Assembly: GCA_964195995.1 (NCBI GenBank)
Contig: CAXMQS010000036.1
Location: 31,116 to 95,115, forward strand
From: an uncultured Acidimicrobiia bacterium
GTDB lineage: Bacteria > Actinomycetota > Acidimicrobiia > Spongiisociales > JAOTWH01
DNA length: 64,000 nucleotides
Direction: 5' to 3'
Position numbers and translations under genes: made by a program. The notes under the pieces were generated by a model that was not told the DNA's origin, ran no database searches, and saw only the letters and a list, made by a program, of their open reading frames with translations. Below, piece by piece: positions 323 to 39,035 of the stretch. The first letter of the stretch is position 1; each line of letters opens with the position of its first letter.

Positions 323-2785
323 GTGTCTGAACACACAGTGTCAGGCTCCGTGGGTGGCAAAGAGCTCACCCTCAACACCGGCAAGCTTGCCTTGCTGGCC
401 GACGGAGCCGTAGTCGTCACCATGGGTGACACCGAGGTCCTCGTGACCGCAACCGCATCGCGCGGAATGCGGCCCGGCCAGGACTTCTTCCCACTAACAG
501 TCGATGTCGAAGAGCGCATGTACGCCGTTGGCAAGATCCCCGGCTCGTTCTTCCGTCGTGAGGGCCGAGCGACCGATCGCGCGACTCTCACCTGCAGGCT
601 CATCGACCGTCCGCTGCGTCCATCGTTCCGCGATGGCTATATGTCGGAGACCCACGTCGTGGCGACTGTTCTGGCCGTCGACGGCGAGCTGGATTACGAC
701 GTGCTCGCCCTCAATGGAGCGTCGGCCGCACTGACCATCAGCGGACTTCCGTTCGAAGGACCGATCGGCGCCATCCGGTTGGCCCTCAAAGATGGCAACT
801 GGATCGCCAACCCCACATACGAAGATCTCGGTGAGAGCGTCTTCGAGATCGTGGTGGCCGGCACTCGCAATGCCGACGGCGCTATCGACATCAACATGGT
901 CGAGGCCGGAGCGACCGAAGAGGGCTACCGGCTCGTACAGGCCGGTCAGCCTGCTTCCAACGAAGAGAGCGTCGCTCAGGGCCTTGAAGAGGCCAAGACA
1001 TACATCGCCGAGAGCATTGATCTGCAGCTCGCCCTAAAGGCGAAGCTCGGCGACATCGCTGAAGTCGAGCTCGCAACAGTCGAGACCTACAGCCCCGAGA
1101 TCTTGGAGCAGGTCAAGAGCCATGTCGGCTCCTCCGTCTCCGAGGCGGCGACCATCGCCGATAAGAAGGAACGCAAGGACGCTGAGAAGAAGGCTCTCGA
1201 AGGCGCCATTGAGGCCATGGGCCTCGCCGAGGACGACGTCGATGGGCGCAAGCAGGCCGCAGCTGCGTTCAAGTCGGTATCCAAGGAGGCCATGCGCAGA
1301 CGTGTCATCGACGACGGCATCCGGCTTGACGGCCGCAAGCCAGACGAGATCCGCGAGCTGTCCGCAGAGGTTGGGCTGATCAATCGCACCCACGGCACCG
1401 GCCTGTTCCAACGTGGACAGACCCAGGTCCTTTCGGTGGCGACACTCGGCATGCTGCGCATGGAACAGATGCTCGACACGATCCATCCGGAAGAGTCGAA
1501 GCGCTACATGCACCACTACAACTTCCCGCACTACTCCACAGGAGAGACCGGGTTCATGCGTGGTCCCAAGCGCCGTGAGATTGGCCACGGGTTCCTCGCC
1601 GAGAAGGCGCTGCTTCCGGTGATCCCCAATGCAGACGACTTTCCGTACGCCATCCGTGTGGTCTCGGACGTCATGACTTCCAACGGCTCGACATCGATGG
1701 CGTCCGTTTGTGGATCCAGCCTGTCGCTGATGGACGCCGGTGTTCCGATCGCCGCCCCAGTCGGCGGCATTGCCATGGGCCTCATCGCTCATGACGACGG
1801 GTTCATCACGCTGACGGACATCCTCGGAGCCGAGGATGCCCTTGGCGACATGGACTTCAAGGTGGCAGGGACGGCGGACATGATCACCGCCCTCCAGCTC
1901 GACACCAAGATCGCCGGGTTGCCGGCCGATGTGCTCATCGGGGCACTGGCGGCGGCCAAGGTGGCCCGCCTTCAGGTGTTGGCTGCCATGGCAGAGGCGC
2001 TCCCGGCCCCTCGTGAGGAGCTCAACAAGAACGCTCCACGCATCGAGGCTGTCAGCATTCCCAAGGACAAGATCGGCGAGATCATCGGGCCCAAGGGCAA
2101 GATGATCCGCGAGATCGAAGAGCTCACCGGCGCCACCCTCGACATCGAGGACGACGGCACCGTCATCATCGGTGCGGTCAGCGGCGAAGAGCTCGAGGCG
2201 GCGAAGGAGAAGGTCCTCGAGATCGCCTTCCCTCCAGACGTCGAGCTCGGAGAGGTGTACGACGGCGAAGTTGTGAACATCACCAAGTTCGGTGCCTTCA
2301 TCAACCTGATCGCCAACCGCGACGGCCTGCTCCACATCTCCAAGATGGGTGGCGGCCGCCGTATCGAGAACGTCGAGGACGAGTACACGATGGGCGACAA
2401 GATCAAGGTCATCGTTCGCGAGATCGATGACCGCGGCAAGGTCAGCCTCGACCTCGCAGACGCCCCCCAGGGCGGCGGCGACAAGCCGGCCAGAGAGAGC
2501 GGCAACGGCGACCGCGGTCGCTCCGGCGGCGGCGGTCGTGATCGTGAGCCCCGTGGCGGCGGTCGTGATCGTGGCGGCGACGGCGGCGGACGCGAATCCG
2601 GCGGCGGCGGTGGCGGACGCGAGTCCCGCGGCGGCGGTCGTGATCGCGACGGTGGCGGCAGGGGCCGCGACCGTGGCGGCGATAGCGGCGGCAGCCGCGA
2701 CACCGGAGGCGACAGCAAGCCCGCAGGCGGCAAGGCCCGCAAGCAGGTGTCCTTCTCCGACGAGTTCGACGCCGGCGAGAAGTAG
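323..2785 (+). CDS. pnp: polynucleotide phosphorylase with an Arg/Gly/Asp-rich low-complexity C-terminal extension
   Basis: The long ORF shows the RNase PH-like domains, KH domain and S1 domain (…GEVVNITKFGAFINLIANRDGLLHISK…). The probable start is GTG at 323, preceded by GGAGA at 314-318, and the product begins VSEHTVSGSVGGKELTLNTGKLA. The listed ORF start at 233 is likely too early. Confidence 0.9.
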   Translation: MSEHTVSGSVGGKELTLNTGKLALLADGAVVVTMGDTEVLVTATASRGMRPGQDFFPLTVDVEERMYAVGKIPGSFFRREGRATDRATLTCRLIDRPLRPSFRDGYMSETHVVATVLAVDGELDYDVLALNGASAALTISGLPFEGPIGAIRLALKDGNWIANPTYEDLGESVFEIVVAGTRNADGAIDINMVEAGATEEGYRLVQAGQPASNEESVAQGLEEAKTYIAESIDLQLALKAKLGDIAEVELATVETYSPEILEQVKSHVGSSVSEAATIADKKERKDAEKKALEGAIEAMGLAEDDVDGRKQAAAAFKSVSKEAMRRRVIDDGIRLDGRKPDEIRELSAEVGLINRTHGTGLFQRGQTQVLSVATLGMLRMEQMLDTIHPEESKRYMHHYNFPHYSTGETGFMRGPKRREIGHGFLAEKALLPVIPNADDFPYAIRVVSDVMTSNGSTSMASVCGSSLSLMDAGVPIAAPVGGIAMGLIAHDDGFITLTDILGAEDALGDMDFKVAGTADMITALQLDTKIAGLPADVLIGALAAAKVARLQVLAAMAEALPAPREELNKNAPRIEAVSIPKDKIGEIIGPKGKMIREIEELTGATLDIEDDGTVIIGAVSGEELEAAKEKVLEIAFPPDVELGEVYDGEVVNITKFGAFINLIANRDGLLHISKMGGGRRIENVEDEYTMGDKIKVIVREIDDRGKVSLDLADAPQGGGDKPARESGNGDRGRSGGGGRDREPRGGGRDRGGDGGGRESGGGGGGRESRGGGRDRDGGGRGRDRGGDSGGSRDTGGDSKPAGGKARKQVSFSDEFDAGEK

Positions 2786-2840: not shown

Positions 2841-2903
2841 TTCTATGGCCCCCTCCCGAGGGTGGCGACTATCAGGGGGGAGAGCCTCCTCCTCCCGCCG
2901 TTC

Positions 2904-2954
2904 GACCCCCTCCGACCTCGCTTAGCTCGGCCATCCTCCCCCTGAAGGGGGAGG
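2904..2954 (+). repeat. GC-rich double-hairpin repeat unit (copy A, type 1)
   Basis: gaccccctccgacc-tcgcttagctcgg-ccatcctccccctgaagggggagg. The 3' hairpin cctccccc-tgaa-gggggagg (2935-2954) abuts the ATG at 2955. Related copies occur at 16636, 21458(-), 34577 and 37948/38172. Confidence 0.7.
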
Positions 2955-4733
2955 ATGGGCTCCTTGCCTCCGTACTCTCATCAGTTCATGAAGGTCCTCG
3001 ACCCCTCCATCAGGCCCGGCCTGTCGCTGATTCGCACCACCCTCCTCGGGTATAGGTGGGAGGCGGCGCGGGCTATCAGCGGGGCGCTGCTGTGGATGGC
3101 CACCGTTGTGTCAATCCCGCTGATGACGAGACACATCATCGACCGGTCCATCCTGGCCGACCGCGGCTCCGTGCTCGGCGCGCTCGTTCTCGGGCTGTTG
3201 GGACTTGGCTTTCTGCAGGGAGTTGGCATTGGTGTCCGCAGGTACTTCGGCTTCCGCCTCTCGTATAGGGCCGAAGCCGATCTCCGCAATCACATGTTCG
3301 AGCAGGTGCAACGCCTCAGCTTTCGCTTCCATGACGAGGCCAGCACCGGCCAGCTGATGGCCAGGGCGTCGAGCGACCTATCGCAGATGAGGCTGGTCCT
3401 CGCCATGACGCCCATAACGGTCGCCAACATCGGCATGTTCTTGGCGGTGATCACCGTCTTTGTCGTGCTTGATCCTGTCTTGGGCCTTGTGGCCTCGCTC
3501 ACCGTTCCGATCCTCGGCTTGAGCGCCCGTGGCTACGCCAAGCGCGTCATCAAGCTGTCTTTTGACGTCCAGCAGCGCCTTGCCGACCTCAGCGAGGTGG
3601 TGGAGGAAGCTATCGGTGGCATTCAGGTCACGAAGTCACACGGCCAGGAGGACCAGGAGCAGGGCAAACTCGACCACGCCGCCGACCGCATCCTGGACGA
3701 CCAGATCGCGCTGGCCCGCATCCGATCGGTCTTCACCCCGCTGTTCGAGCTCATCCCATCCCTGGGGACCGTCGCGGTGCTGTGGCTCGGCGGCACCCGC
3801 GTTATCAACGGGCAGGTCAGCCTTGGCGAGTTCGTGGCCTTCACTCAATATCTCGGCGTCCTCATGTTCCCGTTGCGCATCACGGGCTGGTTCTTCGCCC
3901 AGGTTCCGAGAGCTGGTGCTGCAGGAACCCGCATCAGCCAGCTGTTCTCCGAAGCTCCAGATATCGCAGATCCCCGCCACCCTGAGACACTGCAGCCGGG
4001 TCCCGGCGAAGTCAGGCTGACCGGTGTCTCCTTCGCCTACCCCGACGGCACCGGCGTGCTGGACAACATCGATCTCACCATCCCTGGCGGGACATCGGTT
4101 GCCCTCGTCGGCGCCACCGGCGCCGGCAAGACCACGCTCTCCTTCCTCATCCCGCGCTTCTACGACGTCGACGAGGGGACCGTTGCCATAGATGGTGTCG
4201 ACGTCCGCCGAATTCAGCTGGCCGACCTGCGCCGAGAGGTCGCCCTGGTGTTCCAGGAGACGTTCCTGTTCTCAGCCTCGGTCAGGGACAACATCGCCTT
4301 CGGCCGTGCCGACGCCTCCGACGAACAGGTGCGCTTGGCGGCCCGCCTGGCGCAGGCCCACGATTTCATCATGGATCTGCCCGATGGATACGACACGGTC
4401 GTGGGCGAGCGCGGTCACTCGCTCTCTGGAGGACAGCGCCAGCGGGTGGCTCTGGCCCGCGCCGTCCTGCGCGACCCGCGGGTCCTCATCCTCGACGACG
4501 CCACCTCGTCTGTTGACGCCATCGTCGAAGCCGAGATGCTTACAGCTCTGGAGCGGGTGATGGCGGGCAGAACCACGGTCATCATCGCCCACCGCACCTC
4601 GACGCTGGCGCTGGTCGATCGGGTCGTCTTCCTTGACGAGAGCGGCATAGCGGCCGTTGGTCCTCACGCCGAGCTGGTCCGCACCGTTCCCAGGTACGCC
4701 GAGGTGCTGGCTCAGGAGGAGTCCCTCAGATGA
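2955..4733 (+). CDS. ABC transporter, fused permease/ATP-binding subunit (heterodimeric exporter, subunit 1)
   Basis: Six-TM N-terminal domain followed by an NBD with Walker A GATGAGKTT, signature LSGGQRQR and Walker B ILILDDATS. 4-nt overlap with the next gene. Confidence 0.85.
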   Translation: MGSLPPYSHQFMKVLDPSIRPGLSLIRTTLLGYRWEAARAISGALLWMATVVSIPLMTRHIIDRSILADRGSVLGALVLGLLGLGFLQGVGIGVRRYFGFRLSYRAEADLRNHMFEQVQRLSFRFHDEASTGQLMARASSDLSQMRLVLAMTPITVANIGMFLAVITVFVVLDPVLGLVASLTVPILGLSARGYAKRVIKLSFDVQQRLADLSEVVEEAIGGIQVTKSHGQEDQEQGKLDHAADRILDDQIALARIRSVFTPLFELIPSLGTVAVLWLGGTRVINGQVSLGEFVAFTQYLGVLMFPLRITGWFFAQVPRAGAAGTRISQLFSEAPDIADPRHPETLQPGPGEVRLTGVSFAYPDGTGVLDNIDLTIPGGTSVALVGATGAGKTTLSFLIPRFYDVDEGTVAIDGVDVRRIQLADLRREVALVFQETFLFSASVRDNIAFGRADASDEQVRLAARLAQAHDFIMDLPDGYDTVVGERGHSLSGGQRQRVALARAVLRDPRVLILDDATSSVDAIVEAEMLTALERVMAGRTTVIIAHRTSTLALVDRVVFLDESGIAAVGPHAELVRTVPRYAEVLAQEESLR

Positions 4734-16635: not shown

Positions 16636-16679
16636 TTGACCCCCTCCGGCCCTTCGGGCCACCTCCCACTGAACGGGGA
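16636..16679 (+). repeat. GC-rich double-hairpin repeat unit (copy B, type 2)
   Basis: gaccccctccggcccttcgggccacctcccactgaacggggagg, with hairpins ggccc-ttc-gggcc and cctccc-actgaac-ggggagg. Confidence 0.7.
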
Positions 16680-16753
16680 GGTTTGGCGGGGATTCTGCCT
16701 CTGGCGGAGTTTCCCCAATGCGATAGCGTTATGGCGTCATAGAGAGGGAGACC

Positions 16754-19727: not shown

Positions 19728-20719
19728 TCGCGGATCCAGGCGTCGCGGTTGGCATCGACGAAAGCTGGGTCGAAGAGTCGGACCTCGTCGGGGAATTCGG
19801 TGTAGGCGACGAAGTCGGCGGGGAGGGCGGCCTCGCTGTTAGCCGGGTACACGAACATGTTGAGGGGAATGTCTTGTTGGAACTCGATGCTAAGCATGAA
19901 GTCGATGAGTTGACGAGCCGCTGACTGGGCATCCGAACCCTCCAAGACGGCGGCGTATTCGATCTGCCGATAGCAACTGGCCCCCAGAACACCCGTCGGC
20001 GCCTGGTCGGTCGGCTCTGCGGCGAAGATGACCTCTGCCGGTGGCGAGGAGGCGTAGGAGACGACGAGGGGCCGATCTCCTCCGTACAGGCTGAAGTCTC
20101 CGCGGTAGGCCTCCTCCCATCCGGCGGCGACCAGCACGTCGTTGGCAACGAGACCGCGCCAGTAGTCCTGCCAGCCGTCGGCGCCGTACTCGTGGATGGT
20201 CGCCAGCAAGAACGCCAGGCCGGGCGACGAAGTGGCGGGGTCCTGGACCACGAGCAGGCCCGCGAACTCGGGGGAGAGCAAGTCGTCGAGGTTCTGCGGG
20301 AGGGCCCGACCGATTTCGCTGAGGGCTTCGAGGTCGTAGTTGATGCAGACGTCGCCGAAGTCGATTGGCGCCGCCCGCCCCTCAGTTCCAGCTTGGAGGT
20401 CGGCGGGCACGTGGCGGAGACCGTCGGGTTGGTAGCGGTCGAGGATGCCGGCGTCGAGAGCTCGGCCGAGGAGGGCGTTGTCGACGCCGAAGATGACATC
20501 TGCCAGCGGATTGTCCTTGGTGAGGATCGCCTGATTGACGACCGCACCGGCGTCCCCGGAGCGCAGAACCTTGACGGTGATGCCGGTCTCGGCGGTGAAA
20601 GCCGCCAGCACGTCGTCGGAGACCGCGAACGAATCATGAGTGAGCAGCGTCACCGTGTCCGCACTCGATCCACCACACGAGGCGCCGACGAGGATCACGA
20701 TGGCGGCGAGGCGCTTCAT
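19703..20719 (-). CDS. thiamine/iron-type periplasmic substrate-binding lipoprotein (ThiB/TbpA-like)
   Basis: Lipoprotein signal MKRLAAIVILVGASCGG. ThiB-like fold motifs. It follows the thiamine pyrophosphokinase gene behind a TPP riboswitch. Confidence 0.7.
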   Translation of the reverse strand: MKRLAAIVILVGASCGGSSADTVTLLTHDSFAVSDDVLAAFTAETGITVKVLRSGDAGAVVNQAILTKDNPLADVIFGVDNALLGRALDAGILDRYQPDGLRHVPADLQAGTEGRAAPIDFGDVCINYDLEALSEIGRALPQNLDDLLSPEFAGLLVVQDPATSSPGLAFLLATIHEYGADGWQDYWRGLVANDVLVAAGWEEAYRGDFSLYGGDRPLVVSYASSPPAEVIFAAEPTDQAPTGVLGASCYRQIEYAAVLEGSDAQSAARQLIDFMLSIEFQQDIPLNMFVYPANSEAALPADFVAYTEFPDEVRLFDPAFVDANRDAWIREWTEIVLR

Positions 20720-21339
20720 GTCCGGTGGAGGGCTAGGACACAGCCCGCGGTGACTGTCACCGTGGCAGTGACAGCGTCGAGCTCATTGCTGACCCCGCGG
20801 GTGGTGCCCGGCGCGAGCTCCTCGTTGTCGAGTCCCCACCTGAGGCCGGAGGTCGTGACTGTGGCAGGTTCCCCGATGGCGAGCAGAGTGACCTGGTCGC
20901 CGATGGCGCCGACGATCGTGTAGTCCTGGCGAACAACCGCAGCGTGGTAGGAGTCGACGAACCATTCGACGGATGCGGTCTGGTAGCGGTCGGAAGCCAG
21001 CAAGGCGGCATTTGCCAACAGATGGTCCAAGCGTCCGCCACCCCCGCCGACCACGACGATGGAGGAGGCGCCTCTCGTCATCGCGGCGTCTAATGCGAGC
21101 TCGAGGTCAGTGGCGTCTTTATCACTGGGGCGTCGGTCGATGGCGACGCCGGCTGCTTCGACTTGTGCAAGGAGACCTGGTTCGACGGAGTCCATGTCGC
21201 CGATGACGAGGTCGGGAGTGAGCCCGAGCGGCGCCGCCAGCGCCAGGCCGGAGTCCGCGGCGATGACGCCATCGGGGGAGGGGAGGGCCGGCAGTAGGCG
21301 CGGTGCCTCGCCTCCTGCCAAGACGATGATTGTGCCCAC
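20716..21339 (-). CDS. thiamine pyrophosphokinase
   Basis: VIGDMDS…RPSDKDATDLELAL motifs. The proposed start is GTG at 21339, 7 nt after GGAGGA. The ORF-track ATG at 21357 lies inside the conserved riboswitch core. Confidence 0.7.
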   Translation of the reverse strand: MGTIIVLAGGEAPRLLPALPSPDGVIAADSGLALAAPLGLTPDLVIGDMDSVEPGLLAQVEAAGVAIDRRPSDKDATDLELALDAAMTRGASSIVVVGGGGGRLDHLLANAALLASDRYQTASVEWFVDSYHAAVVRQDYTIVGAIGDQVTLLAIGEPATVTTSGLRWGLDNEELAPGTTRGVSNELDAVTATVTVTAGCVLALHRT

Positions 21340-21436
21340 AGGTTCCTCCGCTGGCATTACCCAGATCAGGTTCGGTGGGTCGGTGGCGCCTGTAAGGCCA
21401 CCCTCTCAGCCCGGCTGCCCGAGCTCCCCAGTGACG
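21338..21436 (-). ncRNA. TPP (thiamine pyrophosphate) riboswitch
   Basis: The reverse complement reads CACUGGGGAGCUCGGGCAGCCGGGCUGAGAGGGUGGCCUUACAGGCGCCACCGACCCACCGAACCUGAUCUGGGUAAUGCCAGCGGAGGAACC. This contains the GGGG(U/A)GC…GCUGAGA and ACCUGAUCUGGGUAAUGCCAGCG…GGA thi-box elements. Confidence 0.8.
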
Positions 21437-21457
21437 GCCCCAATGGTACAGCAGTTC

Positions 21458-21506
21458 GCCCCTCCAGGGCGAGGTGGCCGAGCACAGCGAGGTCTGAGGG
21501 GGTCGA
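21458..21506 (-). repeat. GC-rich double-hairpin repeat unit (copy E, type 1, minus orientation)
   Basis: The reverse complement reads gaccccctcagacctcgctgtgctcggccacctcgccctggagggg, matching copies A and C. It lies between the riboswitch and the AT-rich promoter region. Confidence 0.6.
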
Positions 21507-34505: not shown

Positions 34506-34620
34506 TGTCTCCCCCCATTGGGGGGAGTACCGGCGGAGCCGGGGAGGGGGGCTTCCTAGCGGGCGTGCTCGTTGCTGACACCCCTCCGCCTCGCTGCGCT
34601 CGGTCACCCTGGAGGGGGAG
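34506..34620 (+). repeat. composite GC-rich repeat (copy C): internal GGGGAG/CCGG module plus type-1 terminal unit
   Basis: tctcccccc-attg-gggggag hairpin, followed by cggcggagccggggaggggggcttcctagcgggcg (nearly identical to 38100-38134), followed by acccctccgcctcgctgcgctcggtcaccctggagggggagg. Confidence 0.65.
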
Positions 34621-34621
34621 G

Positions 34622-34637
34622 GCGAACATATGTTCGA
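34622..34637. promoter_or_regulatory. LexA (SOS) box upstream of dnaE2
   Basis: gcgaacatatgttcga (core CGAAC-N4-GTTCG), about 15 nt before the dnaE2 ATG and immediately after the repeat unit. Confidence 0.7.
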
Positions 34638-37600: not shown

Positions 37601-37952
37601 CCCGGTCCACTTCGCCCGCCCCGTTCTCGCCGACCGGGGCTGCTTCACCGTTGCCGACGCCCTTGTGAAGAAGCGTCACGGCATCAGGGCCAAGGTCGGC
37701 GGCATCATCACCCACCGCCAGCGTCCCGGCACCGCCAAAGGCATTCGCTTTCTCAACCTCGAGGACGAGACCGGTCTCCTCAACGTCGTCGTGATGCCCC
37801 AGGTGTGGGACCAGAACTACGAGATCGCCCGCAAGGCAGTCGGGGTGATCATCGAAGGACGCCTCGAGTTCCGCGACGGCGTCACCAACCTGGTCGCCCA
37901 CCGTTTCTGGGAGTGGCCGGTAGATGGAGTGAAGAGCCGCGACTTCCGATAG
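34653..37952 (+). CDS. dnaE2: error-prone DNA polymerase III alpha subunit DnaE2 (ImuC)
   Basis: 1099 aa. PHP domain MYAELHCHTNYSFQDGAS, pol IIIalpha palm/fingers, and an OB domain at the C-terminus. SOS box upstream. Confidence 0.9.
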   Translation: MYAELHCHTNYSFQDGASWAEELVQRAVDLEYTALAVTDHDGFRGAVRFHQAATVTGLPAVYGTEISMAANANEDQDKDPIPGPGEAEIAEPEKRRGRTHPMHGSKPTAMAEADHLVLLASSPQGYGAISHLVSKAQFRGRKDRPVYDWGDVAEAAAIGELVALSGCHQGAMARAAQAGDLDGALREGSRLREIFGGRFYVELWHHGMPEDDPRNDLMAEAARRLNAPTIATNNAHYHDRSQADLSEVLAAIGGRRDLDANDGYRPASDERYLKSPQEMEQRFARYPGAVRRAGRLGADLAFDLALVAPRLPDYGLPGSFTTESEYLRHLVFEGAQEVYPDGAGGVEWRAEQRLNHELKVIEELEFGGYFLVVWDIVQFARSRDIYCQIRGSGADSAVCRCLGLTRVDPIRLNLPFERFLSEERARPPDIDVDFEAERREEVIQYCYQRYGRERAAMVANVITYRARSVLQDVGKAFGLTQAQVSGLTRYVDTRKPQRLAEELELPPGLTTDLIYDMCARLDGFPRHLGIHSGGMVMADRPLWEVVPLEWGRMEDRSVLQWDKDDCAAMGVVKFDLLALGMLNALHLAVDMIGDAHGVAVDLATIDQEPVIYDMLTKADTVGLFQVESRAQMATLPRMKPKDFYDLAIEVALIRPGPIQGHSVHPFLRRRNGEEKVSYPHPLAEPILRKTLGVPVFQEQLMELARVCAGFSPGQSDRLRSAMTHKRSDEAMAKLADEVYDGMARNGITGSAADEIWEKLQGFASFGFPESHSVSFAYIVYASAWLKYHWPTEFLAGLLNAQPMGFYSPNTLAQDAIRHGVVVLAPDINTAEFDCTIEHIDTDPNDIAIYYGLSWRRGRGPTDDPVRPATAVRLGLRYVRNLGEAEIARIEAARQVGGPFSSAEDLAQRTGLDAGGLEGLAAAGALGSVGMGRRDGIWAAGALADLGPGRLAISEGAVAPSLGEMEPYQAHQADLWSTGVSSTHPVHFARPVLADRGCFTVADALVKKRHGIRAKVGGIITHRQRPGTAKGIRFLNLEDETGLLNVVVMPQVWDQNYEIARKAVGVIIEGRLEFRDGVTNLVAHRFWEWPVDGVKSRDFR

Positions 37953-38214
37953 AGAATCCTCCCCCTTCAGGGGGAGGTGGCCCGAAGGGTCGGAGGGGGT
38001 CGAGGCGTGGTTCACCCGTCATCGAGATCGTGGCGAGGCTCGCTTGGGGGAGTACCGGCGAAGCCGGGGAGGAGACCCTCTCCGTTTCTCCTCCCATAGG
38101 GGGGAGAAACGGCGGAGCCGGGGAGGGGGGCTTCCTCGCGGGCGCGTGGTTTTGGTACATCGTGATAGCTGTAAACAGGAAGCCCCCTCCGACCGTCTCG
38201 GCCACCTCCCCCTA
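37948..38214. repeat. MITE-like composite element (copy D) with ~44-bp terminal inverted repeats made of the double-hairpin unit
   Basis: The left arm cctcccccttcagggggaggtggcccgaagggtcggagggggtc (37948-37992) is the inverted complement of the right arm gccccctccgaccgtctcggccacctccccctaggggggagg (38172-38214). The internal part carries gggggagtaccggcgaagccggggagg and cggcggagccggggaggggggcttcctcgcgggcg modules shared with copy C. Confidence 0.65.
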
Positions 38215-38258
38215 GGGGGGAGGAGACGTCAAGCTGCCCTAAGAGGGGAGCGCTTCCT

Positions 38259-39035
38259 TTACGGTGCACGCACGCCGAGCGCTGTTGCCAGCACCACCGA
38301 TAGGCCGAGGACAACCTGCTGGGCCCCGAGCGCCGCTACGACCGGTGGACGGCGGCGAACCTGGACGATGTGCACGACCGCCAACGCGATGAGGGCGATC
38401 ATCCCGGTGAGAGGGACGGCGTCCAACGTGTATCCGACGGTCCCGGCCATTGCCGCCACGAACTGGGCGCCGTCGGAGGTAAGGACCTTGTGAGGTTGCT
38501 CCTTCATTCGCCGAAGCTGTACGCGCACGAATGGAATCGCGGCAACGGCCCTGGCGCCGGCGACGCACCACAGGCCGGCGGCGACCAGAGCACCGCCACC
38601 TCCTGCCAGGGCGATGGCGGCGGCCACCGCGGCAACGCCGACGGAGCCGGCCAGCTCGGGCACCAGCCGCCTGCTGCGGGACCGGATGTCGTACCACGAC
38701 TCGATAGCCACCAGCGGCGCCGCGATCACAAGGGGCCACCAGAACGCCTGCTCAGCGGTGACAACGGCAAGCATCAGCAGCACTGCTGCGATTGCCAGCT
38801 CGACACCCGCCACCCGTTCCGCCAGTTGCGTGCGGCCTAGCCGTCGCTTCCGCAGGCGATCGACCAAGGCGATTCTGAGCGGCGTGCGAGCCACGAACGC
38901 CGTGAGAGCGACACCCGCCAGCGCCAGGCCAGCCGCACTGGGCTCGACCAACAGCCCCAACACGGCAGGCTCGAGAGTGAGGCTCCAACCCCCGTGCTCA
39001 GTGGGGACGGCAACCGATCGGACGGAAACCACCAT
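38259..39035 (-). CDS. YwiC-like polytopic membrane protein
   Basis: 258 aa with about 8 hydrophobic helices. The N-terminus HGGWSLTLEP… is typical of YwiC-like proteins. Confidence 0.5.
   Translation of the reverse strand: MVVSVRSVAVPTEHGGWSLTLEPAVLGLLVEPSAAGLALAGVALTAFVARTPLRIALVDRLRKRRLGRTQLAERVAGVELAIAAVLLMLAVVTAEQAFWWPLVIAAPLVAIESWYDIRSRSRRLVPELAGSVGVAAVAAAIALAGGGGALVAAGLWCVAGARAVAAIPFVRVQLRRMKEQPHKVLTSDGAQFVAAMAGTVGYTLDAVPLTGMIALIALAVVHIVQVRRRPPVVAALGAQQVVLGLSVVLATALGVRAP

What the first reader, a model, noticed from the sequence alone, without database searches (positions are those of the whole stretch)
2904..2954. Family of ~45-bp GC-rich double-hairpin repeat units at five or more intergenic loci
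A family with the consensus gaccccctccg(a/g)cc-[cttcgg or tcgctNNgctcgg]-gccacctcccc-ctgaa-gggggagg occurs at five intergenic loci. These are 2904-2954, 16636-16679, 21458-21506 (minus), 34577-34620 and 37948-37992/38172-38214. Each unit folds into two short GC hairpins. Copies sit exactly at gene boundaries: after the pnp terminator, after ybaK, between the thi riboswitch and a divergent promoter, and around dnaE2. This is consistent with REP/MITE-like elements that can act as terminators, mRNA stabilisers or insulators. In copy A the 3' hairpin cctccccc-tgaa-gggggagg contains the Shine-Dalgarno of the ABC exporter gene (ATG at 2955), so the repeat may occlude the ribosome-binding site.
Basis: seen in the sequence. 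Interest (0 to 1): 0.55.

Follow-up and report, generated by a model that had tools for sequence, protein, structure and literature searches.

The report
Triplex-type intergenic DNA repeat family
The ~45-bp GC-rich repeats are real, and they belong to a very widespread bacterial family whose three conserved blocks are arranged so that one DNA strand could fold into a hairpin-capped triple helix, like the enigmatic E. coli "BoxC" repeats; they do not look like gene-specific regulators.

Summary
The window has six strong and three decayed copies at five intergenic loci, against none in shuffled sequence. A covariance model built only from copies in other genomes finds them (E 4e-13 to 7e-6).

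That box is the mirror image of the pyrimidine arm of hairpin 2. Across subfamilies in Alphaproteobacteria, Acidimicrobiia and Chloroflexota, all three blocks change together: C always lies opposite G, and T or A opposite A. Watson-Crick pairing cannot produce this pattern. It fits a purine-motif intrastrand triple helix on the G-rich strand.

The closest known kind is BoxC / PIT / TMECO (Holder 2015). The difference here is that the second loop holds a covarying mini-hairpin, often with a GNA triloop.

Orientation is independent of transcription (75 vs 81). Copies favour gene 3' ends and occur in inverted pairs with unlike hairpins. Ribosome-binding-site occlusion is not supported as a family function. 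Triplex formation itself is inferred, not shown.

Verdict: new variant of a known kind; function still unknown, as for BoxC.

The parts
2906..2958 (+). Copy A. Strand is the one that reads C-rich box to purine block. Third-strand box CCCCCTCC 2906-2913; hairpin 1 2914-2932 (TTA apex); pyrimidine arm 2935-2942 (stem extends to 2931); loop TGAA 2943-2946; purine arm GGGGGAGG 2947-2954 (stem extends to 2958 and includes ATG 2955).
   Evidence: E=3e-8; DNA fold -19.5 kcal/mol on the G-rich strand, z=-4.8, tail unpaired; perfect triplet register.
16640..16682 (+). Copy B. Box CCCCCTCC 16640-16647; hairpin 1 GGCCC-TTC-GGGCC 16648-16660; pyrimidine arm ACCTCCC 16661-16667; loop 16668-16675; purine arm GGGAGGT 16676-16682. 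Hairpin 2 is weakened by two substitutions.
   Evidence: (E=1e-7). It lies 33 nt after the stop (16607) of the YbaK/tRNA-editing-domain gene.
21456..21502 (-). Copy C, degenerate. Box CCCCCTCA 21495-21502; hairpin 1 21476-21494; arms CTCGCCC / GGGCGA with a compensated C-G change that the box does not follow.
   Evidence: I1, 79% to copy A; E=0.057. It lies 16 nt upstream of the 5' end of the TPP riboswitch at 21325-21440(-).
34509..34551 (-). Copy D4a, sister subfamily. Box CCCCCCTCC 34543-34551; hairpin 1 CCGGC-TCC-GCCGG 34530-34542; linker TA; pyrimidine arm CTCCCCCC 34520-34527; loop AAT; purine arm GGGGGGAG 34509-34516. With copy D it forms a head-to-head inverted pair.
   Evidence: family D4; E=9e-8.
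34581..34622 (+). Copy D, degenerate. Box CCCCTCC 34581-34587; hairpin 1 34588-34605; pyrimidine arm largely lost; purine block GGGGGAGGG 34614-34622. It abuts a LexA-type box at 34623-34636.
   Evidence: (E=5.8).
37958..37999 (-). Copy E, the best copy. Box CCCCCTCC 37992-37999; hairpin 1 GACCC-TTC-GGGCC 37979-37991; linker A 37978; pyrimidine arm CCTCCCCC 37970-37977; loop TGAA 37966-37969; purine arm GGGGGAGG 37958-37965. The + strand here is the G-rich strand: CCTCCCCC-TTCA-GGGGGAGG-T-GGCCC-GAA-GGGTC-GGAGGGGG.
   Evidence: (E=4e-13). It starts 6 nt after the stop (37952) of the DnaE-type gene.
38039..38075 (-). Copy D4b, truncated or decayed. Hairpin 1 CCGGC-TTC-GCCGG 38055-38067 and pyrimidine arm CTCCCCC 38046-38052 are kept; the purine arm is lost.
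   Evidence: D4, 62%; E=0.99.
38085..38130 (-). Copy D4c. Box CCCCCCTCC 38122-38130; hairpin 1 38110-38121; arms TTTCTCCCCCC 38099-38109 and GGGAGGAGAAA 38085-38095 (one mismatch); loop TAT.
   Evidence: 90% to D4a; E=7e-6.
38183..38223 (+). Copy F. Box CCCCCTCC 38183-38190; hairpin 1 38191-38203; linker A; pyrimidine arm CCTCCCCC 38205-38212; loop TAG; purine arm GGGGGAGG 38216-38223.
   Evidence: (E=2e-8). It lies 35 nt from the stop of the YwiC-like gene at 38259-39035(-).

Best explanation
These are copies of a dispersed, non-coding, intergenic repeat of the bacterial 'intrastrand triplex motif' kind (BoxC / PIT / TMECO), in a form not described in the literature I could search.

Read on the G-rich strand, a unit is: pyrimidine block (CCTCCCCC), 3-4 nt loop, purine block (GGGGGAGG), 1-3 nt, a small covarying hairpin that often has a GNA triloop, then a G-rich third block (GGAGGGGG) that is the mirror image of the purine block.

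Shown:
- the blocks, the hairpins and their covariation;
- the three-way co-variation of the blocks across subfamilies and phyla;
- the lack of transcription-strand bias;
- the inverted pairing of neighbouring copies.

Inferred:
- When that strand is single-stranded (replication, repair, transcription bubble), blocks 1 and 2 make a Watson-Crick hairpin. Block 3 then folds back antiparallel into its major groove (G*G-C, A*A-T or T*A-T), giving a class II purine-motif triple helix with the extra hairpin capping loop 2.
- The fold, rather than any flanking gene, is what the process that spreads or keeps the element recognises.
- The element behaves as a selfish or neutral structural repeat. Its side effects would be stable hairpins in transcripts of either strand, possible polymerase obstacles, and local genome plasticity, which Holder et al. 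link to E. coli TMECO.

How it spreads is unknown.
For: 1. Real family.

2. Wide distribution with the same architecture. The pattern scan hit its 120-locus limit both in species genomes (Sphingomonadales, Caulobacterales, Hyphomicrobiales, Acidimicrobiia/Actinomycetota, Chloroflexota) and in IMG/VR contigs.

3. Hairpin 1 covaries: 3 of 6 pairs carry double changes, and 0 of 500 shuffles reach the observed score. Its apex is C[TNC]G in 251 of 413 copies, which is C[GNA]G on the G-rich strand.

4. Three-way covariation: GGGGGAGG with CCCCCTCC; GGGAGAGG with CCCTCTCC; GGGGGAAG with CCCCCTTC or CCCCCATC; GGGAGAAGG with CCCTCATCC; GGGAGAGGG with CCCTCACCC; GGGGAGGG with CCCCTCCC or CCCCACCC; GGGGGGAG with CCCCCCTC. 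The subfamily-by-box compatibility matrix is diagonal. The true assignment is matched or beaten by 157 of 20000 random permutations for 8-mers and 63 of 20000 for 9-mers.

5. Unbiased test: scans using hairpin 2 alone, with no box in the pattern. A triplex-compatible block lies on exactly one side in 139 of 153 cases (91%) for CCTTCTCCC/GGGAGAAGG. It lies on at least one side in 134 of 172 (78%) for CCCTCTCCC/GGGAGAGGG and 54 of 120 (45%) for CCTCCCCC/GGGGGAGG. Controls (direct repeat of the arm, mirror of another subfamily, reversed register) reach 0-5% of sides.

6. Opposite A the box carries T or A; opposite G it carries C. In the hairpin-2-only scans the forms with an A are the commoner ones (CCCTCATCC 131, CCCTCACCC 112 vs CCCTCTCCC 28, CCCCCACC 40 vs CCCCCTCC 21). 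These are exactly the triplets allowed in the purine motif and not in the pyrimidine motif (triplet rules as given in PMC4666352).

7. The same blocks occur with either a 2-7 nt second loop (classical BoxC form) or a hairpin-bearing loop. Caulobacter copies carry the TMECO blocks, including the trailing GTC.

8. Behaviour matches TMECO:
- intergenic;
- no strand bias (75 vs 81);
- neighbouring copies within 150 nt inverted 88 times vs direct 7 times;
- hairpin 1 differs between partners in 78 of 78 close inverted pairs (compare).

9. The TMECO G-strand oligonucleotide forms a stable triplex in vitro (Tm 70-82 C, by CD and NMR; PMC4666352).

10. In the window copies the 8-nt third block is left unpaired by Watson-Crick folding.
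Against: - There is no structural measurement for this family. ViennaRNA cannot model triplexes, so formation is inferred only from sequence covariation.
- For E. coli TMECO, in vivo DMS footprinting did not detect a triplex, and the duplex competes with it.
- Only 4 of the 9 window copies have 8 perfect triplets. One more has 7, and the rest are decayed.
- In the unbiased scan only 45% of CCTCCCCC/GGGGGAGG hairpins have a third block.
- The subfamilies share ancestry, so the number of independent covariation events is smaller than the number of copies.
- No propagation machinery was identified.
- The enrichment at gene 3' ends (convergent 60 vs divergent 26) could also fit an RNA-level role.
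- The extra stability of GNA triloops is from my own knowledge, not tested here. Only 5 of the 9 window copies have a GNA apex.
Confidence: 0.6

Rival explanations
1. One reading: a REP/MITE-like element that works at the RNA level. The two GC hairpins in the mRNA terminate transcription, protect 3' ends from exonucleases or insulate genes. In copy A the 3' hairpin hides the ribosome-binding site of the ABC exporter gene.
For: - Both hairpins are predicted on either strand.
- Copies lie at gene ends and favour 3' ends: convergent 60 vs divergent 26, and 376 adjacent 3' ends vs 259 adjacent 5' ends.
- The hairpin of copy E is followed by a T-rich tail.
- ATG 2955 lies inside the 12-bp stem of copy A.
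Against: - It does not explain the conserved, covarying mirror third block.
- There is no orientation bias in tandem gene contexts (75 vs 81).
- Most copies have no T-run.
- ORF starts show no peak at Shine-Dalgarno distance.
- GGAGG abuts ATG 2955 with zero spacing.
- Holder et al. report that an earlier study found no promoter or terminator activity for E. coli PIT elements (PMC4666352).
Confidence: 0.2
2. The C-rich strand, as RNA or DNA, forms a pyrimidine-motif triplex (C+*G-C, T/U*A-T). The 5' box lies parallel to the purine arm.
For: In the window copies the box CCCCCTCC matches GGGGGAGG perfectly in parallel register, and the topology (Hoogsteen block, pyrimidine arm, purine arm) is allowed (strand-order classes in PMC4666352). 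According to that paper, pyrimidine-type intrastrand triplexes can form in RNA.
Against: - Seven of the eight triplets would need protonated cytosine, which is unfavourable at neutral pH (PMC4666352).
- In most subfamilies the box has A opposite an A of the purine arm (CCCTCATCC, CCCTCACCC, CCCCCACC). That is a mismatch in this motif but allowed in the purine motif.
- There is no transcription-strand bias.
Confidence: 0.08
3. The G-rich strand forms a G-quadruplex (or the C-rich strand an i-motif) from the G-runs of the purine block and the third block.
For: The G-rich strand has four or more G2-G5 runs. Holder et al. also considered this for TMECO.
Against: - It does not explain why a complementary pyrimidine arm is always present in cis, or why the A positions of the third block mirror those of the purine arm.
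- NMR on TMECO showed a triplex, not a quadruplex.
- Subfamilies such as GGGAGAAGG have only G2-G3 runs.
Confidence: 0.04
4. It is a double-stranded binding site, for example for a nucleoid-associated or other DNA-binding protein, and no folding is involved.
For: The blocks are highly conserved across phyla. E. coli REP/BIME elements bind host proteins (my own knowledge).
Against: - Compensatory changes in hairpin 1 and hairpin 2 indicate that base pairing is selected, not sequence.
- A mirror repeat has no meaning for a protein reading duplex DNA.
Confidence: 0.07
5. It is chance similarity of low-complexity GC-rich sequence.
For: The blocks are low-complexity C/G runs, and the 11-mer GACCCCCTCCG alone is not over-represented.
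Against: - The full pattern has 0 matches in 100 shuffles, and the strict triplex scan also has 0 in 100.
- A model built from other genomes gives E-values down to 4e-13.
Confidence: 0.01

Closest known systems
BoxC / PIT elements / TMECO intrastrand triplex motif of E. coli and other Proteobacteria (Bachellier 1990s; Hoyne & Maher 2000; Holder et al. 2015, PMC4666352)
   Same: - Three blocks on one strand in the order pyrimidine, purine, mirror G-rich block (class II purine motif).
- G/C-rich, with T or A allowed opposite A.
- Always intergenic, tens or more copies per genome, and no strand bias.
- Occasional inverted pairs made of two different types.
- Unannotated in genome records: the TMECO 36-mer matches all 5426 E. 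coli genomes, median 19 places, with no feature under the listed best matches.
- Caulobacter relatives of the window family carry the very TMECO blocks CCCTCTCCC / GGGAGAGGG / GGGTGAGGG-GTC.
   Different: - The window blocks are 8 nt with a different sequence (CCTCCCCC / GGGGGAGG / GGAGGGGG).
- The second loop is 12-28 nt in the 413-copy sample (most often 14-20 nt; about 14-23 nt in the window) and contains a covarying 4-7-bp hairpin, usually with a GNA triloop. In TMECO it is 3 nt.
- The hosts are Acidimicrobiia, Alphaproteobacteria and Chloroflexota rather than Enterobacteria.
REP / BIME elements and REPIN doublets (E. coli, Pseudomonas), mobilised by RAYT transposases
   Same: Short GC-rich extragenic palindromic units at high copy number, with a preference for gene 3' ends. 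Neighbouring copies are usually inverted (88 inverted vs 7 direct). Sequence variants are genome-specific.
   Different: - There is no GTAG-type 5' tetranucleotide.
- The core is conserved across phyla, whereas REPs are species- or genus-specific (my own knowledge).
- REPs have no third mirror block.
- Association with a RAYT gene was not tested.
H-DNA-forming mirror repeats (homopurine-homopyrimidine tracts)
   Same: Mirror symmetry of a purine/pyrimidine tract and the same Hoogsteen or reverse-Hoogsteen triplet rules.
   Different: H-DNA needs only two mirror halves and forms from duplex DNA under supercoiling. Here one strand carries all three blocks and can fold on its own, with a Watson-Crick hairpin built in.
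Hairpin-forming MITEs and small dispersed repeats (for example Correia, RUP, RPE, SMAG)
   Same: Non-autonomous, small, intergenic and hairpin-forming.
   Different: No terminal inverted repeats or target-site duplications are visible at the window copies. The unit is also much shorter (42-53 bp).

Membership tests
Intrastrand triplex motif, class II purine motif (PIT / BoxC / TMECO kind) | Pyrimidine block and purine block on the same strand form a Watson-Crick hairpin with a short first loop (N3-6). | tested here: met
   Stems of 7-12 bp with 3-4 nt loops in copies A, E, F, D4a and D4c; copy B has an 8-nt loop.
Intrastrand triplex motif, class II purine motif (PIT / BoxC / TMECO kind) | The third block is the mirror of the purine block (G opposite G, A or T opposite A) over at least 7-8 consecutive triplets. 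| tested here: met
   8 of 8 in A, E, F and D4a; 7 of 8 in B; not met in the decayed copies C, D and D4b. Across subfamilies the third block tracks the purine block.
Intrastrand triplex motif, class II purine motif (PIT / BoxC / TMECO kind) | Second loop short: N3 in TMECO, 1-6 nt in ITxF, 0-10 nt in Hoyne et al. | tested here: not met
   The second loop is about 14-23 nt in the window and 12-28 nt in the 413-copy sample, and it contains a hairpin. Short-loop relatives with the same blocks exist elsewhere.
TMECO proper | Consensus CCCTCNCCC-N3-6-GGGNGAGGG-N3-GGGNGAGGG[GTC]. | tested here: not met
   The window blocks are CCTCCCCC / GGGGGAGG / GGAGGGGG. So this is the same kind of element but not the same sequence family.
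Intrastrand triplex motif, class II purine motif (PIT / BoxC / TMECO kind) | Intergenic, no strand bias, occasional inverted pairs of unlike types. | tested here: met
   All window copies are intergenic. Tandem contexts give 75 vs 81. In 78 of 78 close inverted pairs the hairpin 1 sequences differ. D4a/D is such a pair in the window.
Intrastrand triplex motif, class II purine motif (PIT / BoxC / TMECO kind) | The isolated strand forms a triple helix (CD, NMR, melting). | not testable with these tools
   Shown only for E. coli TMECO oligonucleotides (PMC4666352).
REP / REPIN with RAYT | Extragenic imperfect palindromes of 20-40 bp at high copy number, often as inverted doublets. | tested here: met
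REP / REPIN with RAYT | Conserved GTAG-type 5' tetranucleotide and a cognate RAYT (IS200/IS605-like) gene. | not tested
   No GTAG is seen at the unit ends.
MITE | Terminal inverted repeats and target-site duplication. | tested here: not met
   By inspection of the flanks only: no duplicated flanks, and the only inverted repeats are the internal hairpins.
Intrinsic (Rho-independent) terminator | GC-rich hairpin followed directly by a T/U run. | tested here: not met
   Only the hairpin of copy E has a weak T-rich tail. The real pnp terminator is a separate hairpin at 2816-2835 with a T-run.
Any Rfam RNA family | A match at or near the family's gathering score. | tested here: not met
   Only the TPP riboswitch passes in the window. 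At the repeats, only chance-level matches far below gathering scores are found.

The most novel reading that the evidence does not exclude
The triple-helical fold of the G-rich strand is itself the selected and recognised structure. On this reading BoxC/TMECO, the short-loop forms and this hairpin-in-loop form make up one superfamily of structure-defined single-stranded-DNA elements spanning several bacterial phyla. The three-way (Watson-Crick plus reverse-Hoogsteen) covariation would then be comparative evidence that a DNA triplex is under selection in vivo. The elements would be propagated or maintained by a structure-specific machinery that has not yet been identified.
Probability: 0.35. 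Interest if true: 0.8.

Novelty: new variant of a known kind. Interest (0 to 1): 0.62.

Why it matters
BoxC/PIT elements have been known since the 1990s without an assigned function, and whether DNA triplexes matter in living bacteria is still open.

- This family extends the phenomenon from Enterobacteria to Actinomycetota, Alphaproteobacteria and Chloroflexota.
- It reveals an architecture (a hairpin inside loop 2) that the loop limits of the published triplex searches should have excluded.
- It provides covariation among all three strands. That kind of evidence established many RNA structures, and I did not find it applied to a DNA triplex.
- It gives sharp, cheap tests: which strand folds, which triplets are used, and which register.
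- It warns annotators that GGAGG-containing hairpins next to start codons in these genomes are repeat debris rather than ribosome-binding-site regulators.

Tried and rejected
- Rfam: a gathering-threshold scan of the whole window found only the TPP riboswitch. A permissive scan over 37930-38250 gave only chance-level microRNA or sRNA matches.
- Literature by sequence strings: searches for CCCCCTCC/GGGGGAGG and CCCTCATCC/GGGTGAGGGG gave only unrelated papers. A search for REP with Sphingomonas and Caulobacter gave nothing relevant.
- Anti-Shine-Dalgarno mimicry: I considered that CACCTCC resembles the 16S 3' end and that the unit mimics an SD/anti-SD helix. I dropped this because CAC is not conserved in many subfamilies, orientation is random and there is no Shine-Dalgarno-distance peak.
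- Alternative Watson-Crick pairing of the 5' box with the purine arm (a switch): rejected because the box is the mirror, not the direct repeat, of the pyrimidine arm (direct-repeat control).
- First alignment: MAFFT on mixed loop lengths mis-aligned the 3' block, so I used a gapless subset.
- Gene calling: two crude ORF-based callers were too noisy. I replaced them with a codon-position GC test of the coding strand in the flanks.
- Model hit at 19795-19835: it lies in coding sequence with no hairpin 2, so it is chance.
- GC-skew orientation: there is a bias only in IMG/VR loci (13 vs 58) and none in genome loci (26 vs 23), so I did not use it as evidence.
- Window organism: the exact ABC-exporter protein was found only on a 13-kb Logan contig. 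The taxon was inferred from 66% PNPase identity to an Acidimicrobiia MAG.
Full report
**1. The observation**

- The composite pattern CCCCTCC-N8-30-CCTCCC-N3-8-GGGGAGG has 4 exact matches in the window and none in 100 dinucleotide-preserving shuffles.
- The repeat finder links the copies pairwise: 79-91% over 47-58 nt.
- Read on the C-rich strand, D4 (AGCCCCCCTCC-CCGGCTCCGCCGG-TA-CTCCCCCC-AAT-GGGGGGAG) has the same plan as the main family.

Two reader coordinates are off by about 10 nt, and one copy (37958-37999) is on the minus strand.

The window holds six strong copies (A, B, D4a, E, D4c, F) and three decayed ones (C, D, D4b), all intergenic. They lie:
- after the pnp terminator;
- after a YbaK-type gene;
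- just upstream of the TPP riboswitch;
- before and after a DnaE-type polymerase gene.

**2. The family elsewhere**

A scan of one genome per species with CCCCCTCC-N8-30-CTCCCCC-N3-6-GGGGGAG stopped at its 120-locus limit. The same scan of IMG/VR contigs also hit the limit.

The hits share features the pattern did not require:
- a perfect small hairpin directly after the 5' box;
- a C[TNC]G apex on that hairpin;
- a 1-3 nt linker (usually A or CCC) before the pyrimidine arm;
- GAT after the purine arm.

The hairpin-bearing architecture occurs in Sphingomonadales, Caulobacterales, Hyphomicrobiales, other Alphaproteobacteria, Acidimicrobiia/Actinomycetota and Chloroflexota.

A covariance model built only from foreign copies recovers the window copies with E-values from 4e-13 to 7e-6. 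The window elements are therefore members of this wide family.

The window itself comes from an Acidimicrobiia-like actinobacterium. Its PNPase is 66% identical, and a second gene 58% identical, to an Acidimicrobiia MAG. That MAG also has an element just downstream of its pnp terminator, but from the other subfamily and in the opposite orientation.

**3. Anatomy**

Hairpin 1 varies in sequence but keeps its pairing. Three of six pairs show changes on both sides, no shuffle out of 500 reaches the observed covariation, and slid registers collapse.

The key point is the 5' box. It is not complementary to anything in the unit. It is the mirror image of the pyrimidine arm of hairpin 2. Equivalently, it is the same-polarity complement of the purine arm.

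Extra copies in the fetched loci belong to subfamilies with different purine arms, and the box changes with them:

| Purine arm | Box |
|---|---|
| GGGGGAGG | CCCCCTCC |
| GGGAGAGG | CCCTCTCC |
| GGGGGAAG | CCCCCTTC or CCCCCATC |
| GGGAGAAGG | CCCTCATCC |
| GGGAGAGGG | CCCTCACCC |
| GGGGAGGG | CCCCTCCC or CCCCACCC |
| GGGGGGAG | CCCCCCTC |

I defined elements by structure alone (hairpin 1 with a TNC triloop). The matrix of 'elements of subfamily i' against 'box compatible with purine arm j' is then diagonal. The true assignment is matched or beaten by 157 of 20000 random permutations for 8-mers and by 63 of 20000 for 9-mers.

**4. An unbiased test**

The first scans required the box, so I rescanned IMG/VR with hairpin 2 alone for three subfamilies. 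I then asked what lies within 50 nt on either side.

| Hairpin 2 type | Distinct cases | With compatible third block | Commonest boxes |
|---|---|---|---|
| CCTTCTCCC / GGGAGAAGG | 153 | 139 (91%), always on one side only | CCCTCATCC 131 |
| CCCTCTCCC / GGGAGAGGG | 172 | 134 (78%) | CCCTCACCC 112, CCCTCTCCC 28 |
| CCTCCCCC / GGGGGAGG | 120 | 54 (45%) | CCCCCACC 40, CCCCCTCC 21 |

Three controls were run: a direct repeat of the pyrimidine arm, the mirror of another subfamily, and the reversed register. They occur on 0-5% of sides.

The same blocks occur with two kinds of second loop: a short loop of 2-7 nt, or a long loop that contains a hairpin of at least 4 bp. The hairpin is therefore an optional insert in loop 2 of a common design.

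**5. What the mirror rule means**

Watson-Crick pairing gives reverse complements, never mirrors. A protein reading duplex DNA gains nothing from a mirror either. Triple helices do require mirror symmetry.

The observed rule is C opposite G, and T or A opposite A. In the hairpin-2-only scans the forms with an A are the commoner ones. This is wrong for the pyrimidine motif, which needs T opposite A. Read on the complementary G-rich strand, however, it is exactly the purine motif:
- the third block runs antiparallel to the purine arm;
- it uses G*G-C, A*A-T and T*A-T triplets (triplet rules as summarised in PMC4666352).

The register is also right. The third block ends where hairpin 1 begins, and hairpin 1 ends 1-3 nt from the duplex. 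The two ends of hairpin 1 therefore close a loop equivalent to the 3-nt loop of the classical motif.

On this same strand the apex of hairpin 1 is C-GNA-G. From my own knowledge this is the unusually stable DNA mini-hairpin loop. According to the paper, purine-motif triplexes do not form in RNA. All of this points to single-stranded DNA of the G-rich strand.

Watson-Crick folding of the window copies leaves the 8-nt third block free.

My own inference, not tested: a T rather than an A in the third block, in subfamilies whose purine arm is palindromic as a mirror (GGGAGAGGG), would stop that block from competing as a Watson-Crick partner.

**6. Comparison with the known**

The literature search found Holder et al. 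2015 (PMC4666352). It reports that:
- E. coli BoxC, re-described as PIT elements and then as TMECO, is CCCTCNCCC-N3-6-GGGNGAGGG-N3-GGGNGAGGG[GTC], a class II purine-motif intrastrand triplex;
- no triplex was detected in vivo by DMS;
- the elements are always intergenic and show no strand bias;
- in five cases they sit as inverted pairs that always combine type A with type B;
- an earlier study found no promoter or terminator activity;
- they are associated with locally elevated sequence variability.

I confirmed the TMECO 36-mer in all 5426 complete E. coli genomes (median 19 places). No annotated feature lies under the listed best matches.

The present family behaves the same way:
- In tandem gene contexts, 75 copies share the direction of the flanking genes and 81 oppose it (p=0.69).
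- Convergent contexts (60) outnumber divergent ones (26; p=3e-4).
- Neighbouring copies within 150 nt are inverted 88 times and direct 7 times.
- In 78 of 78 close inverted pairs the two hairpin 1 sequences differ. This would avoid a long perfect palindrome.

Caulobacter copies carry the TMECO blocks themselves plus the inserted hairpin, which bridges the two forms.

I found no other description in the held library, but that library is incomplete.

**7.

The REP-like classification is fair. A strand-specific RNA role is not supported as a family property:
- orientation relative to flanking genes is random;
- there is no Shine-Dalgarno-distance peak of ORF starts on either strand (18 of 222 and 18 of 210);
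- there is no T-run except a weak one after copy E.

In copy A the purine arm abuts ATG 2955 with no spacer, and the ATG is inside a 12-bp stem (-19.5 kcal/mol for the unit as DNA). An in-frame ATG follows at 2988 with no Shine-Dalgarno. Either the true start is downstream or initiation is unusual. I could not decide this.

**8. Verdict**

- It is best filed as a new architectural variant (hairpin in loop 2, new block sequences, new host phyla) of the known intrastrand triplex repeat kind.
- The block architecture and the three-way covariation are shown.
- Triplex formation, its occurrence on single-stranded DNA in vivo, and any function or mode of spread are inferred or unknown.

Noticed in passing
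window 34623-34636: A LexA/Cheo-type SOS box, CGAACATATGTTCG, lies 16 nt upstream of the ATG (34653) of the 1099-aa DnaE-type polymerase. This suggests an SOS-inducible DnaE2-like gene, here without adjacent imuA/imuB. The same box is present in the Acidimicrobiia MAG locus L119, between pnp and the next gene (exact coordinates not determined).
   Followed up: partly
window 2499-2691 (within ORF 233-2785): The PNPase gene carries a C-terminal Gly/Arg-rich extension encoded by imperfect 27-nt-period repeats (families D1, D5 and D9). The homologue in L119 also seems to extend beyond the S1 domain.
   Followed up: no
window 21325-21440 (-) and 20716-21357 (-): A TPP riboswitch (57.5 bits) sits directly upstream of a thiamine pyrophosphokinase gene. 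Decayed repeat copy C occupies the 16-62 nt upstream of the aptamer, where the promoter would be expected.
   Followed up: no
fetched loci L002-L241; in the window the pair 34509-34551(-) / 34581-34622(+): Neighbouring copies within 150 nt are almost always inverted (88 vs 7). In 78 of 78 close inverted pairs the two hairpin 1 sequences differ. This echoes the E. coli rule that type A is always paired with type B, and it would avoid long perfect palindromes.
   Followed up: partly
IMG/VR loci L122-L241 versus genome loci L002-L121: The G-rich reading of the element lies on the locally C-skewed strand in 58 viral-collection loci and on the G-skewed strand in 13. In genome loci the split is 23 vs 26. 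This is unexplained. It may be a coding-strand effect in phage-like contigs or a real replication-related bias.
   Followed up: partly
window 2848-2896: A C/G-rich stretch (CCCCCTCC ... GGGGGGAGAG CCTCCTCCTCCC) lies between the pnp terminator and copy A. It has repeat-like blocks but no valid hairpin or triplex arrangement, so it may be a decayed copy.
   Followed up: partly
L119 about 2965-3016: In the Acidimicrobiia MAG, an element of the D4-like subfamily lies just downstream of the pnp terminator, as copy A does in the window, but in the opposite orientation relative to pnp. This is either a recurrent insertion site or coincidence.
   Followed up: partly
plasmid collection: Sequences 80-88% similar to copy E occur on large replicons of Rhizobium, Azospirillum, Shinella and Pleomorphomonas. 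Nearly all have no annotated feature under the match.
   Followed up: no
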